DNA of 64,000 nt from positions 60,326,001-60,390,000 of the forward strand of contig OY740791.1 of the NCBI GenBank assembly GCA_963514005.1, read 5' to 3'. Positions 36,001 through 39,000 of this stretch are shown here, piece after piece. Positions within the stretch are counted from its first letter, which is position 1; each line of letters begins with the position of its first letter. The position numbers were made by a program. Source of the DNA: Raja brachyura (taxonomy: Eukaryota).

Positions 36001-39000
36001 GATGCCCTGTTATCTTAACAAACGCTGCATAGCTCCACTCCCTAAAATGCGCGAATTTGCACGTTAAAACCAGGTCTACAGGTCGGAACTGATTTAAAAA
36101 ACATACCGGAGCCTGTGGACGTCGTGCTGATGACATCATCAGTAAGCTCTGTGAATTTAATGGAATCTTAAAGCACTTTAAATGAAAAATTCTTCCCCTG
36201 GTAAGAGCATTCAGAGAACAGTTACAAAACATTCCTGGGGAAGTCAGACAAAGCCTGAAGAACTTATTTCTGAAGCGGCTTCTGAAGAAAAGGTGCTTTA
36301 CAACATGGCTACAAGATCTAAGACAGATTTGGCCAAGGACAAAGAATTTGAAGAATTAAAGCTTTCGGTAAATTAACTGAAAGATGTAAAGGTGGATGGA
36401 AAAAAGATGGAACAGATGATGGGAGTGATGTTGGAAAAGATAGAAAAGCTAACGCTAAATATGACTTCTTGTAATCAGAATGTTATTGAGTCTGTGAAGG
36501 ATTTGATTGGCACTATTAATAAATGAATTGATGATGTGAGAGATGGACTATCGGAGAGAATTGATAAGGGTGAACAAGACACCACGAAGAGGTTCAATGC
36601 TGTGCTGGGCACTGTCTCAACCTGTATGTTAACAATGCACGAGATTCAGGACGAGATGGCAAGAATGGTGGAGGAGATGAAGAATGTGAGGTCAGAACAA
36701 GACCTTGCTACACGACGGATGGCGACCCAGCTGGCTAAAGTTTCAGACAAATGTCTGGATCTCGAGGCTCGTTCAAGACGTCGTAACCTAAGATTAGTTG
36801 GTGTACCAGAGGGAGCCGAGAGAGATAACATTCGCGAGTTTGCTGCGGGATTAATTAAAGAAGCTCTTAAGCTCCTTAACCTACCAAAAATTGAAGTAGC
36901 ACACCGAGTTCCTAGATTCAAACAAAAATCTCAGGATGGCTCAGAACGTACACGACAGATTATTGTGAAATTCCGGTACATTGCTGACATGGAAGAGGTT
37001 ATAAGGAATATCAAATATGGCGTGCCTCTGATGCATGGTGTAACCACTTTTAAAATCTTCAGGGACTACCATTATGAAATCATGCAAAAGCAAAATCAGT
37101 TCTCTAAGGCAAAGCAGGCTCTCCAAGGACATAAGGAGGGCAGATATGGTGTTTACTACCCAGCTAGAATGCGCATTTCCTACAAGGAACAGCAAAAATT
37201 GTTCACAAATCCCGAGGAGGCGTACAAATATACTCTAACCATCGTGGAACAGAAGGACTAGCTGGAAAGGTTGGACATTTTTGGATACTCTCTCTCTTTA
37301 CTATTGCACCCAGAATGGTGGCACACTGCCCAAAGAAGGAGCTTTGTCTAGACGGTTACACAAAAAGCTGGAGAAACTCAGCGGGTGCAGCAGCATCTAA
37401 GGAGCGAAGGAGATAGGCGACGTTTCGGGTCGAGACCCTTCTTCAGACTGGTCAGGGATCAGGGAAACGAGAGATATAAACGGTGATGTGGAGAGATAAG
37501 GAACAATGAGTGAAAGATATGCAAAAAAGTATTGGTGATAAAGGAAGCAGGCCATTGTAAGCTGTTTGTGGTGTGAAAATGAGAAGCTAGTGCGACTGGG
37601 GGGGAGGGGGGGGGAGATGGAGAAGGAATGTCAGGGCCAGAGGGCTGAGGGAGAGGTGGGGGGGAGGCAGTCTGGGTGAACAGAATTGAGAAAATTCAAT
37701 GTTTAAGCCCAGAGGATGCAGACTCCCCAAGCGGAATATGAGGTGCTGTTCCTCCAACTTGCGGTGTTGCTCACTCTGGCCGTGGAGGAGGCCCAGGACC
37801 GAGAGGTCGGATACGGAGTGGGAGGGGGAGTTGAAGTGCTGAGCCACCGGGAGGTCGGGTTGGTTATTGCGGACCGAGCGGAGGTGTTCGGCGAAACGAT
37901 CGCCCAGCCTCCGCTTGGTCTCACCGATGTAGATCAGCTGGCATCTGGAGCAACGGATGCAGTAGATGAGGTTGGAGGAGGTGCAGGTGAACCTCTGTCG
38001 GACTTGGAATGACTGCTTGGGTCCCTGAAAGGATTGGATGGGGGAGGTGAAGGGACAAGTGTGGCATCTCTTGCCCGGGAAAGTGCCCGGGGAAGGAGTG
38101 GAGCGGGAGGGAAGGGAAGAATTGACGAGGGAGTTGCGGAAGGAGCGGTCTTTGCGGAAGGCAGACAGGGGGGGAGATGGGAAGATGTGGCGAGTGGAGG
38201 GGTCACGTTGGAGGTGACGAAACTGGCGGAGGACTATCTGTTGTAACTTTGTCTAGACGTCTTATCGGCAGAATGCTAACTCAAGGACATACTCTGTTTC
38301 AAGAGAAGCTGGAAAAAGATAACTACCGAAAAGAAGAGCTCATCAACAGACTGGGCTTAGCTATCACTGTTGTATATGAGATCTAATGAATAACCTAATG
38401 GTACAGCATTATAACTATAGCATTAACATCCTTAACAGCATTAACACCCTTAACAATATTAACATAGAATATTAACATATAAAACAGTAATGAATGCTAA
38501 TCAGAAATGCTGAAATGGGGATTTTCAAATTAACATTTTAATTTAACCTAATAATTCGCAAGTAGATTTATAACCGGGCCTTGAGGGGCGTGAGGGGCAG
38601 AGGCGAGCTCCTGGCTCAGTTCCAGGAGCCAGAAATAGATTAACCCCTTCAACCAACAGTTGATGATTTCTGAGGTTAAAATATACGCTTAACACTTAGT
38701 AGATAAAAATGATAGTTATATTCGGAAATACCGAGGAAAAGGATATATATATATACACTGTAAATGGGTAATATACGTCTGAATTTTAAACCGATCCCGC
38801 TCCAATATGTTATAATTAATTGAGGGAGCGGAGCTATTTGTTTGTTTTATATCGACACGGAAGGCAATAAAATGCTTTTTCCCACCTACAGGTGGGTCAC
38901 TTATTACAGTGCCGACAAGCTCGGACACTGTATTCTCACTTATATTAGTTTTCTTTAAATCATTTTCACATTTAATCACATGTGTGTTTTTTTAATTCAA

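What the first reader, a model, noticed from the sequence alone, without database searches (positions are those of the whole stretch)
37355..38246. Parent of the ribozyme-bearing repeats: a Penelope GIY-YIG element with an intact core and a family of TSD-flanked mini-derivatives
Seen: this insertion joins a GIY-YIG C-terminal coding segment to the same terminal repeat, with an intact core at 37419-37446(-), and has a 13-bp TSD. At least a dozen ORF-less derivatives lie in the window (1370, 3318, 6785, 7633, 10625, 16335, 22635, 29018, 31223, 53030, 54145, 55495). Several have their own 10-15 bp TSDs, and about five are inverted-arm palindromes. Inference: 100-300 bp terminal-repeat RNAs are mobilised on their own, as a retrozyme/SINE-like non-autonomous system, with repeated fold-back (twin-priming-like) inversion near the ribozyme core.
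Basis: partly seen in the sequence, partly recalled or inferred. Interest (0 to 1): 0.65.

Follow-up and report, generated by a model that had tools for sequence, protein, structure and literature searches.

The report
Truncated Penelope retroelement and its mini-copies
This is a dead, front-truncated copy of a Penelope-like jumping gene in a shark or ray genome, surrounded by about fourteen short copies of the same element's tail end, whose shapes fit what is already known about how these elements insert.

Summary
37355-38246(-) is an 892-bp insertion with a 13-bp target-site duplication (TSD). It encodes only the GIY-YIG endonuclease end of a Penelope-like element (PLE), followed by a 232-bp pseudo-LTR with a minimal hammerhead motif. 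All 12 listed derivatives are real, and I found two more copies. Seven of 15 insertions have exact TSDs of 9 bp or more, against 0 of 210 controls. Five are tails-out palindromes.

The element is not the parent of the others. It lacks the reverse transcriptase, lacks the tail that its closest relative carries, and the copies fall into three subfamilies.

3' ends fall at two sites about 38 nt apart, which is the known PLE tail. In 5 of 5 palindromes only one arm has the tail. In 7 of 15 insertions the 5' end or inversion junction lies within E795-801, at the 5' edge of the hammerhead. That is about 30 nt upstream of the predicted cleavage site, and no copy starts at that site.

Best reading: these are run-off cDNAs of short transcripts with a fixed 5' end, probably a pseudo-LTR start site. 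They were primed at the PLE's internal start sites, sometimes on both target strands.

The retrozyme and twin-priming labels are not supported. This is a new member of a known kind, of modest interest.

The parts
37342..37354 (.). Target-site duplication of copy J, left copy (CTTTGTCTAGACG)
   Evidence: Exact 13-bp repeat; the neighbouring bases differ.
38247..38259 (.). Target-site duplication of copy J, right copy
37355..38246 (-). Copy J: 892-bp 5'-truncated PLE copy (E1=38246, E892=37355). It sits in the spacer after an ORF of an L1-like LINE.
   Evidence: The host LINE has RVT_1 at 41062-41685.
37590..38246 (-). Open reading frame for the linker and C-terminal GIY-YIG endonuclease. There is no RT. 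Stop codon at 37587-37589.
   Evidence: tblastn aligns it from residue 261 of the 469-aa P0003 onwards.
37355..37586 (-). Pseudo-LTR region of J (E661-892). TTTATAT lies at -31..-25 and CCAGTCT at the position shared by the short copies' 5' ends. It ends at the short 3' site with no tail.
37419..37448 (-). Minimal hammerhead motif (E799-828): GU-CUGAAGA-A-GGGU(CUCG)ACCC-GAAA-CGUC. Predicted cut after E828 (window 37419).
   Evidence: Features compared with PMC4209133. No Rfam match.
1370..1466 (+). A: simple short copy, E799 to the short 3' site, with a 6-nt filler. 14-bp TSD at 1356 and 1467.
3318..3547 (.). B: tails-out palindrome whose arms are 100% identical to each other and 99% to J. Left arm ends at the short site, right arm carries the tail. 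Junction E797|T|E799. 15-bp TSD.
6785..6953 (+). C: copy from about E750 to the tail (the tail has an internal deletion). No TSD found.
7635..7900 (-). D: copy from about E660 to the tail, with a J-type pseudo-LTR. No TSD found.
10627..10823 (.). E: palindrome. Both arms start at E797 and overlap by 7 nt (CAGNCTG). Left arm ends inside the unit at about E866, right arm has the tail. 12-bp TSD.
16332..16555 (.). F: palindrome. Left arm has the tail, right arm ends at the short site. Junction E799|ACACACA|E809. 10-bp TSD.
22637..23007 (.). G: longer palindrome with arms reaching about E716-745 and a 29-nt spacer. Only the right arm has the tail. The 9-bp flanking repeat lies in low-complexity DNA.
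   Evidence: Sub-threshold miRNA-like Rfam hits here.
23517..24137 (+). H: old copy with an endonuclease remnant and pseudo-LTR. No recognisable tail.
29018..29448 (+). N: short copy from about E812 to the tail, interrupted by a 313-bp terminal-inverted-repeat element at 29053-29365.
31223..31388 (+). I: short copy with tail. Its first 29 nt occur twice in tandem (31223-31251 and 31255-31283). No TSD found.
53031..53245 (.). K: palindrome. Both arms start at E797 and overlap by 7 nt. Only the left arm has the tail. The flanking repeat is degenerate (7 of 8).
54143..54272 (-). L1: simple short copy from E799-801 to the tail. Flanking repeat CAG[T/C]ATTCTGT matches at 10 of 11.
54375..54790 (-). 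L2: J-type copy with an endonuclease remnant. Its pseudo-LTR has internal deletions, including the hammerhead (E804-833). Ends at the short site.
55494..55776 (-). M: ORF-less partial tandem: [E853 to tail] + 72-nt linker + [E797 to tail]. A single 10-bp TSD (55484 and 55777) encloses the whole.

Best explanation
The region is a 5'-truncated, endonuclease-only copy of a canonical Penelope-like element (RT followed by a C-terminal GIY-YIG endonuclease) in an elasmobranch genome. The other loci are 3'-terminal fragments of at least three subfamilies of the same element, made by its normal target-primed reverse transcription.

Shown:
- 3' ends fall at two discrete sites about 38 nt apart. This is the PLE tail.
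- Insertions carry 9-15 bp TSDs.
- Five insertions are tails-out inverted pairs with the tail on one arm only.
- Half of all events have their 5' end or junction within E795-801, at the 5' edge of the hammerhead motif. None lies at the predicted cleavage site.

Inferred:
- The template was a short RNA with a fixed 5' end. Most likely this is a transcript started at an initiator-like C-A-G-T-C-T in the pseudo-LTR of some longer copy and running out into flanking DNA.
- PLE RT supplied in trans starts at one of its two internal start sites and runs off the 5' end, giving units of 91-135 nt.
- In the palindromes both target strands primed cDNA. The two run-off cDNAs then joined end to end. In loci E and K they joined by annealing of the terminal near-palindrome CAGNCTG.
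- The hammerhead travels with the copy but is not needed to explain any end.
- The short copies are mostly by-products of the autonomous families rather than a separate self-propagating lineage.

The confidence given (0.6) is for the whole statement. The identity as truncated PLE copies I hold at about 0.95, and the start-site reading of the 5' hot spot at about 0.45.
For: Identity:
- The ORF is 54-66% identical to elasmobranch proteins; two of the four I scanned (P0003, P0010) carry RVT_1 plus GIY-YIG.
- tblastn with 7 of the 10 hits finds only endonuclease parts in the window.

Two 3' sites and the tail:
- MAFFT of 18 arms and the sequence views show them.
- The tail word occurs 9 times against 0 in shuffles.
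- This matches the two RT start sites and the tail of the anole PLE (PMC11167929, read).
[quoted passage not shown] Here 5 of 5 palindromes have it on one arm only (p about 0.03).

TSDs: 7 of 15 insertions against 0 of 210 controls.

5' ends:
- A 799, L1 799-801, I 795-798, B 797|799, E 797|797, K 797|797, F 799|809.
- The rest: N 812, M 853, C about 750, G about 716-745, D about 660, L2 325, H 246 or less, J 1.
- Clustering p is 1.6e-9, or 2.3e-7 after correcting for window choice.

Start-site reading:
- C[A]GTCT is kept in 6 of 8 arms that continue upstream. J has TTTATAT at -31..-25.
- PLE transcription start sites are known to lie in the pseudo-LTR (PMC2377424; PMC6765202).
- Purified anole PLE protein cleaves and extends both strands, and hammerhead cleavage is dispensable.

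By-product reading: short and long copies occur together in subfamilies J and C, and B is 99-100% identical to the endonuclease-bearing J.
Against: - No transcript data exist for this window, so the start site is inferred from sequence only.
- The TATA-like word is present in only 2 of 8 upstream-bearing arms (J, and D weakly).
- The same position also looks like a 3' splice acceptor (pyrimidine tract plus CAG in 8 of 8 arms). In D. virilis the 3' end of an intron abuts helix I (PMC4209133).
- Subfamily F (A, F, I, L1) has short members only in this window (4 of 4 loci). That would fit a self-propagating short lineage.
- Locus M shows that an ORF-less unit can be mobilised as a tandem.
- Palindrome G has its junction about 55-80 nt upstream of the cluster, so not all inversions arise at a run-off end.
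- No full-length RT-bearing copy is in the window, so I could not check that full elements start at E797-799.
- The sample is 15 insertions in one 64-kb window.
Confidence: 0.6

Rival explanations
1. One reading: the 100-300-nt terminal repeat is an independent SINE-like or retrozyme-like non-autonomous lineage. Its own copies are transcribed, perhaps processed by the hammerhead, and re-mobilised by PLE RT.
For: - Discrete unit ends.
- Subfamily F is all-short at 4 of 4 loci.
- M is an ORF-less partial tandem inside one TSD.
- The D. virilis Penelope promoter is internal, so a copy starting at +1 might keep promoter function (PMC2377424).
- Derivation of non-LTR retrozymes from PLE pseudo-LTRs has been proposed (PMC7229834; bioRxiv 10.64898/2026.07.22.740005).
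Against: - None of the 15 insertions begins or ends at the predicted cleavage site.
- No locus has two consecutive complete hammerhead units, which is the preprint's criterion for an active retrozyme.
- Short copies occur in all three subfamilies, alongside long ones in two of them.
- B is essentially identical to an endonuclease-bearing copy.
- Short copies lack everything upstream of +1, including J's TATA-like word.
Confidence: 0.2
2. The E795-801 cluster is not an RNA 5' end. It is a preferred point where the RT leaves a longer template, for example because of a bound protein or a fold at the hammerhead. At that point the RT jumps to the target DNA or to the other cDNA.
For: - Junction fillers at A (AACAAG, copied from the target), B (T) and F (ACACACA) show template switching.
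- The near-palindrome CAGNCTG at E797-803 could favour annealing.
- The anole PLE protein binds RNA near this region and assists hammerhead cleavage (PMC11167929).
Against: - A structural block should stop the RT on the 3' side of the hammerhead, before it is copied. Here the whole motif is copied every time except in F2 and N.
- Eight arms read through the position without interruption.
Confidence: 0.2
3. The short copies are ordinary, randomly 5'-truncated products of full-length element RNAs. The boundary only marks where sequence similarity between subfamilies stops.
For: PLEs are known for heavy 5' truncation (PMC8557442). Seven of the 15 events do have scattered 5' ends (C, D, G, H, J, L2, M).
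Against: - TSDs or the partner arm abut the boundary directly in A, L1, B, E, F and K, so it is a true insertion end and not a similarity limit.
- Seven of the 9 ends lying in the last 150 nt fall in one 5-nt window, p=1.6e-9.
Confidence: 0.04

Closest known systems
Canonical EN+ Penelope-like elements of vertebrates (Penelope/Poseidon, Neptune clades), for example Poseidon of Anolis carolinensis (PMC11167929) and fish Xena/Poseidon/Neptune (PMC4209133)
   Same: - C-terminal GIY-YIG endonuclease, with RT upstream in the protein relatives.
- Pseudo-LTR with a minimal hammerhead.
- Two 3' ends 30-40 nt apart (the tail).
- Heavy 5' truncation, partial tandems and inverted 5'-truncated partners.
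- TSDs of variable length.
- Geometry like the anole element: there the cut site is 26 nt after the AUG inside CUGAUGA, and here it is 26 nt after the equivalent triplet.
   Different: - The motif reads CUGAAGA, so it holds no AUG.
- Helix I has only 2 bp.
- RT start sites lie about 90 and 128 nt after that triplet, against 111-118 in the anole element.
- A sharp cluster of 5' ends at the 5' edge of the hammerhead is not mentioned in the passages and sections I read.
- I could not assign the clade, because no RT is in the window.
Non-LTR retrozymes of animals (PMC7229834; bioRxiv 10.64898/2026.07.22.740005)
   Same: Short, non-coding, hammerhead-bearing and PLE-related. TSDs are longer than 4 bp. 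Locus M is a tandem of an ORF-less unit.
   Different: - Retrozymes are tandem arrays with a canonical type I hammerhead in every unit, and they make circular RNAs.
- Here copies are dispersed single units or inverted pairs.
- Unit ends do not coincide with the cleavage site.
- The motif is the minimal PLE type.
L1 twin-priming inversions (recalled from general knowledge, not read here)
   Same: An inverted 5' part and a direct 3' part lie inside one TSD.
   Different: In twin priming the two segments come from adjacent, non-overlapping parts of one RNA, and only one carries the 3' end. Here both arms cover the same segment and both end at or near an RT start site.
Non-autonomous Chlamys PLEs such as MRC1 in Chlamydomonas (PMC8557442, passage)
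   Same: ORF-less PLE derivatives that share the 3' end with autonomous families and form pseudo-LTRs or head-to-tail insertions, like locus M.
   Different: A different PLE clade, with N-terminal endonuclease and no canonical hammerhead, in a green alga.

Membership tests
Penelope-like element (canonical EN+) | PLE-type reverse transcriptase in the same ORF | tested here: inconclusive
   No PLE RT anywhere in the window (tblastn with 7 relatives; Pfam on 35 of the 114 ORFs of 90 aa or more). Copy J is truncated downstream of the RT. Of four relatives scanned, two (P0003, P0010) have RVT_1 upstream of the homologous endonuclease.
Penelope-like element (canonical EN+) | C-terminal GIY-YIG endonuclease | tested here: met
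   54-66% identity to elasmobranch RT/EN proteins. Pfam GIY-YIG scores 21.9 bits, just under the 22.6 cutoff, for the window ORF. Relatives P0003 and P0010 score 23.2 and 24.6 bits.
Penelope-like element (canonical EN+) | Partial-tandem structure (pseudo-LTR) | tested here: met
   Locus M has 1.4 units inside one 10-bp TSD. It is not present at J itself.
Penelope-like element (canonical EN+) | Inverted 5'-truncated partner copies | tested here: met
   Five loci: B, E, F, G, K.
Penelope-like element (canonical EN+) | Optional 30-40-bp tail, often at one end only | tested here: met
   A 35-38-nt extension is present on 11 arms and absent on the others. It is on exactly one arm in 5 of 5 palindromes.
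Minimal PLE hammerhead (Cervera and de la Pena 2014) | CUGANGA and GAAA boxes, GUH cleavage triplet | tested here: met
   Exact in 4 arms: 3411-3388(-), 3419-3442(+), 37446-37423(-), 54270-54247(-). One unrelated hit. Shuffles average 0.38 hits.
Minimal PLE hammerhead (Cervera and de la Pena 2014) | [quoted passage not shown] | tested here: met
   Read directly from the sequence: A after CUGAAGA, then GGGU...ACCC, then ACGU. Criteria taken from PMC4209133.
Minimal PLE hammerhead (Cervera and de la Pena 2014) | Helix I of 4-5 bp | tested here: not met
   Only 2 bp (U800-A/G829 and G799-C830), paired in 85% of cells. The D. virilis variant described in the same paper also has 2 bp.
Hammerhead ribozyme (Rfam models) | Match to a curated covariance model | tested here: not met
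   0 matches at gathering score. No hammerhead among 3 matches at E<=10 in 37340-37520, nor among 16 across the whole window.
Hammerhead ribozyme | Self-cleavage, as monomer or dimer | not testable with these tools
   Needs an in vitro assay. Helix II is paired in 89.7% of cells, with one compensatory change, which is weak statistically.
Non-LTR retrozyme | At least two consecutive tandem units, each with a complete hammerhead | tested here: not met
   Only M is a tandem, and its upstream partial unit starts at E853, downstream of the hammerhead.
Non-LTR retrozyme | Unit RNA delimited by hammerhead cleavage, and circular RNA | tested here: inconclusive
   None of 15 insertions starts or ends at the predicted cut after E828. 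RNA itself is not testable here.
L1-type twin priming | Inverted and direct segments derive from adjacent, non-overlapping parts of the RNA | tested here: not met
   The arms cover the same segment in B, E, F, G and K.
SINE | Internal Pol III promoter or a tRNA/5S/7SL-derived head | not tested
   I ran no tRNA or A/B-box scan. Copies A and L1 begin directly at the hammerhead motif, with no added head.

The most novel reading that the evidence does not exclude
The 91-135-nt stretch from the pseudo-LTR start site to the RT start sites is a self-sufficient mini-retroposon. It would consist of an initiator at +1, a hammerhead at the extreme 5' end, and an RT-recognition fold in which the tail pairs back onto AGAUGCUG and onto the hammerhead box. 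It would have its own lineage (subfamily F), and its palindromic insertions would record two run-off cDNAs primed on both target strands and annealed through a terminal near-palindrome. If so, these copies are a natural in vivo read-out of PLE start sites, both-strand priming and tail resolution in a vertebrate.
Probability: 0.22. Interest if true: 0.55.

Novelty: new member of a known kind. Interest (0 to 1): 0.3.

Why it matters
The value is mainly in annotation and in corroborating known mechanism.

- The window shows, in a cartilaginous fish, genomic footprints that match what was found in vitro for one lizard PLE: two internal RT start sites, extension from both target strands, and no need for ribozyme cleavage.
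- It adds one feature I did not see in the texts I read: a sharp 5'-end and junction hot spot at the 5' edge of the hammerhead. This would locate the element's RNA 5' end and can be tested directly with 5'-end RNA data.
- These TSD-flanked mini-palindromes can be mistaken for MITEs or microRNA hairpins. Palindrome G draws sub-threshold miRNA-model hits.

Tried and rejected
- Rfam at gathering score and at E<=10, both locally and over the whole window, gave no hammerhead or other ribozyme match at the repeats.
- My first motif scan required helix II to start directly after CUGANGA and found nothing. Allowing the extra nucleotide found the copies.
- RNAcofold of two motif copies gave an unrelated self-pairing. 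My hand-written dimer structure could not be scored because it crosses. I draw no conclusion from this.
- Single-sequence folds gave z-scores of +0.55, -0.99, -2.15 and +0.63, so the unit is not unusually stable. RNAalifold on 10 tail-bearing arms gave -7.3 kcal/mol with an unfavourable covariation term. It predicted an alternative stem rather than helix II.
- The panhandle between the 5' end and the tail end is paired in only 71% of cells.
- I tested whether the ATG at about E850 is the ORF start. The frame is open through the tail only in subfamily J and stops early in subfamilies F and C. The relatives' N-termini gave no help. Left open.
- C and D seemed to share sequence upstream of the pseudo-LTR. 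blastn shows homology only from about E795 to the tail.
- I looked for a master copy. None is in the window. A genome-wide search therefore stayed undone.
- Supplementary figures of PMC4209133 (fish PLE hammerhead alignments) could not be seen. Lunse et al. 2017 was seen only as a reference-list entry.
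Full report
COORDINATES. I number the element on its own (minus) strand: E1 = window 38246 and E892 = window 37355. Loci are lettered A to N in the order used in the parts list.

WHAT IS AT 37355-38246. The 892-bp stretch is bounded by an exact 13-bp direct repeat, CTTTGTCTAGACG, at 37342-37354 and 38247-38259. The bases next to each copy differ. On the minus strand a frame is open from the 5' edge to a stop at 37587-37589, giving 221 aa. Pfam's GIY-YIG model matches it at E=2e-4 with 21.9 bits, just under the curated 22.6 (I scanned 35 of the 114 stop-to-stop ORFs of 90 aa or more listed).

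A search among longer proteins gave 10 hits at E<=1e-3 out of 1595 candidates. The five best are from whale shark, devil ray, stingray, zebra shark and bamboo shark, at 54-66% identity. I scanned four of the ten with Pfam. P0003 and P0010 have both RVT_1 and GIY-YIG, P0012 has RVT_1 only, and P0006 has GIY-YIG only. This is the architecture of a canonical Penelope-like element (PLE). The window is therefore elasmobranch, not human.

tblastn with seven of the ten relatives finds only endonuclease portions in the window: 37632-38249(-), 23517-23799(+) and 54552-54790(-). No PLE reverse transcriptase is found. The RTs that are in the window belong to LINEs. Copy J starts at the equivalent of residue 261 of the 469-aa P0003, so it is a 5'-truncated, RT-less copy. 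It lies inside an L1-like LINE.

THE RIBOZYME MOTIF. Downstream of the stop codon lie 232 nt of pseudo-LTR. At E799-828 the sequence reads GU-CUGAAGA-A-GGGU(CUCG)ACCC-GAAA-CGUC. [quoted passage not shown] Helix I has only 2 bp, as in their D. virilis variant.

An exact-box scan finds four copies in the repeats and one unrelated hit, against a mean of 0.38 in shuffles. No Rfam hammerhead model matches at gathering score or at E<=10. On 10 aligned arms helix II is paired in 89.7% of cells with one compensatory change. The controls make this weak evidence. 'Intact core' is therefore true of the motif only. Activity is untested.

THE COPIES. blastn of the element against the window gives 20 alignments: one to itself, 3 to endonuclease regions and 16 to the last ~96-230 nt. 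nhmmer gives 19 hits including the element itself. A tail-word search adds the interrupted copy at 29018-29448. In all there are 15 insertion events at 14 loci.

By identity over the shared 94 nt the copies form three groups (L2, the partial upstream unit of M, and N were left out of that matrix):
- J-type: J, B1 and B2, 99-100% identical. L2, which was not in the matrix, I assign to this type from its tail and endonuclease sequence.
- F-type: A, F1, F2, I and L1, 77-89% identical. All are short.
- C-type: C, D, E, G, K, M and H.

3' ENDS. The alignment of 18 arms and the sequence views show two classes of 3' end.
- A short site near E889-897: A, J, L2, H, B1, F2, G1 and K2.
- A site 35-38 nt further on, ending ...CAGTTCCTTCYTACACA: B2, C, D, E2, F1, G2, I, K1, L1, M and N.

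This extension is the PLE tail. It is described as an optional 30-40-bp extension often present at only one end (PMC8557442, passages). In vitro it corresponds to the interval between two internal RT start sites of the anole PLE (PMC11167929, parts 1-2). In all five palindromes exactly one arm carries the tail (p about 0.03). Arm E1 ends inside the unit at about E866, flush with its TSD.

TSDs. Exact flanking repeats of 9 bp or more are found at 7 of 15 events: A 14, B 15, E 12, F 10, G 9 in low-complexity DNA, J 13, M 10. None of 210 mismatched left/right controls reaches 9 bp; the longest control repeat is 8 bp. L1 has a 10-of-11 repeat and K a 7-of-8. I found none for C, D, H, I, L2 or N.

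5' ENDS AND JUNCTIONS.
- Simple copies: A starts at E799 after a 6-nt filler copied from its target. L1 starts at E799-801. I starts at E795-798.
- Palindromes: B joins E797|T|E799. E and K each join two arms that both begin at C797 and share the 7-nt near-palindrome CAGNCTG. F joins E799|ACACACA|E809.
- The remaining events: N about E812; M E853 (upstream partial unit of a tandem); C about E750; G about E716-745 with a 29-nt spacer; D about E660; L2 E325; H E246 or less; J E1.

So 7 of 15 events, and 7 of the 9 that end within the last 150 nt, fall in one 5-nt window. The binomial p is 1.6e-9, or 2.3e-7 after allowing for 150 possible windows. TSDs or partner arms abut these ends directly, so they are true ends and not limits of similarity. 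None of the 15 lies at the predicted cleavage site after E828.

WHAT THE HOT SPOT MAY BE. The position reads C-[A]-G-T-C-T in 6 of the 8 arms that continue upstream. This fits the initiator consensus as I recall it. J has TTTATAT at -31..-25 and D a weaker ATAT at -27..-24, but the other six arms have no TATA-like word. PLE start sites are known to lie in the pseudo-LTR. D. virilis Penelope uses an internal, TATA-less, LINE-like promoter (PMC2377424, passages; PMC6765202, passages).

I therefore read the short copies as run-off cDNAs of transcripts that begin at a pseudo-LTR start site and are primed at the element's internal RT start sites. The same position also resembles a 3' splice acceptor (pyrimidine tract plus CAG in 8 of 8 arms). 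In D. virilis the 3' end of an intron abuts helix I. I cannot exclude a link with splicing, or a preferred template-switch point.

THE PALINDROMES. The arms are co-extensive, their 3' ends face outwards, and a single TSD encloses each pair. L1-type twin priming (recalled, not read here) gives adjacent, non-overlapping segments, so it does not fit. The structures do match the 'inverted 5'-truncated copy' of PLEs and the finding that purified anole PLE protein cleaves and extends both target strands. The 7-nt overlaps in E and K are what end-to-end annealing of two cDNAs that both stop at C797 would give. This last step is inference.

NON-AUTONOMOUS UNITS. Locus M (55494-55776, minus strand) reads [E853 to tail] + 72 nt + [E797 to tail] within one 10-bp TSD. 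It is a partial tandem of an ORF-less unit of about 206 nt. Internally deleted PLE derivatives were therefore mobilised here, as is known for Chlamys elements.

It does not meet the retrozyme criterion of two consecutive complete hammerhead units (bioRxiv 10.64898/2026.07.22.740005, part 1 and passages; PMC7229834, passages). The idea that PLE pseudo-LTRs give rise to non-autonomous hammerhead elements is already in print in those two papers.

WHY J IS NOT THE PARENT.
- It lacks the RT.
- It ends at the short 3' site, so it cannot have templated B2's tail.
- Only B and L2 are of its type.
- Short and long forms occur together in two of the three subfamilies, which favours recurrent by-products. 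The all-short F-type (4 of 4 loci) keeps a self-propagating lineage possible.

FOLDING.
- Single units do not fold better than shuffles, except B2 with tail: z = -2.15, with 4 of 200 shuffles folding as well.
- Across the 10 tail-bearing arms a long-range stem AGAUGCUG/CAGCAUCU (E846-853 with the tail) is paired in 94.5% of cells with one compensatory change. It may be part of what the RT recognises, but the statistics are weak.

LIMITS.
- This is one 64-kb window with 15 events and no RNA data.
- No eukaryotic genome collection was available, so I could make neither the genome-wide consensus nor the search for a master copy.
- Supplements of the papers were closed.
- I searched the paper library four times. 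In what I read I saw no statement that PLE 5' ends cluster at the 5' edge of the hammerhead. That is not proof that it is unpublished.

VERDICT. This is a new member of a known kind. Interest is modest (0.3).

Noticed in passing
window 29053-29365: A 313-bp element with 25-nt terminal inverted repeats (22 of 25 matching, both starting TTAAAG) interrupts short copy N between CTCCAG and TGCTG. It looks like a MITE.
   Followed up: partly
window 31223-31283: In copy I the first 29 nt (5' end through GAA of the hammerhead) occur twice in tandem with a 32-nt period and no difference between the units. The first unit stops within 1-2 nt of the predicted hammerhead cut. This could be later slippage, or a jump of the RT onto a cleaved 5' fragment.
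   Followed up: partly
window 54375-54560 (-): The endonuclease-bearing copy L2 has a clean 30-nt deletion of the hammerhead (E804-833), and a poly-C tract replaces most of the pseudo-LTR. It still ends at the normal short 3' site.
   Followed up: partly
E846-853 paired with the tail, e.g. window 3464-3471 with 3522-3529: The conserved 8-nt word AGATGCTG and its reverse complement CAGCATCT in the tail are paired in 94.5% of cells across 10 copies, with one compensatory change in F1. This may be part of the RT start-site structure.
   Followed up: partly
window 22732-22891: Palindrome G draws sub-threshold matches to several microRNA precursor models on both strands (best 49.6 bits against a gathering score of 85). 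Such PLE palindromes could be miscalled as hairpin RNA genes.
   Followed up: no
window 36527-42311 (+): An L1-like LINE hosts copy J: a 244-aa ORF without a Pfam match at 36527-37258, then RVT_1 at 41062-41685. An N run at 39603-39842 lies inside it.
   Followed up: partly
window 48926-50011 (+), 33501-34418 (+), 48338-48760 (-), 19805-20383 (-): CR1/L2-like LINE fragments (the first three with RVT_1; all but 48926-50011 with the ALKBH8_N model). The window is largely a mosaic of retroelements.
   Followed up: no
window 18538-18996 (+): Weak, sub-threshold Pfam match to Na_Pi_cotrans (22.7 bits against a 29.1 cutoff). It could be an exon of a host phosphate transporter gene, or chance.
   Followed up: no
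protein P0006 (zebra shark), C-terminus: The annotated protein reads on past the endonuclease and ends ...SLMKGLRPKRQLLCS. This looks like a translation through a CUGAUGA-type hammerhead of a related shark PLE, which would mean gene models there run into the pseudo-LTR. This is judged by eye only.
   Followed up: no
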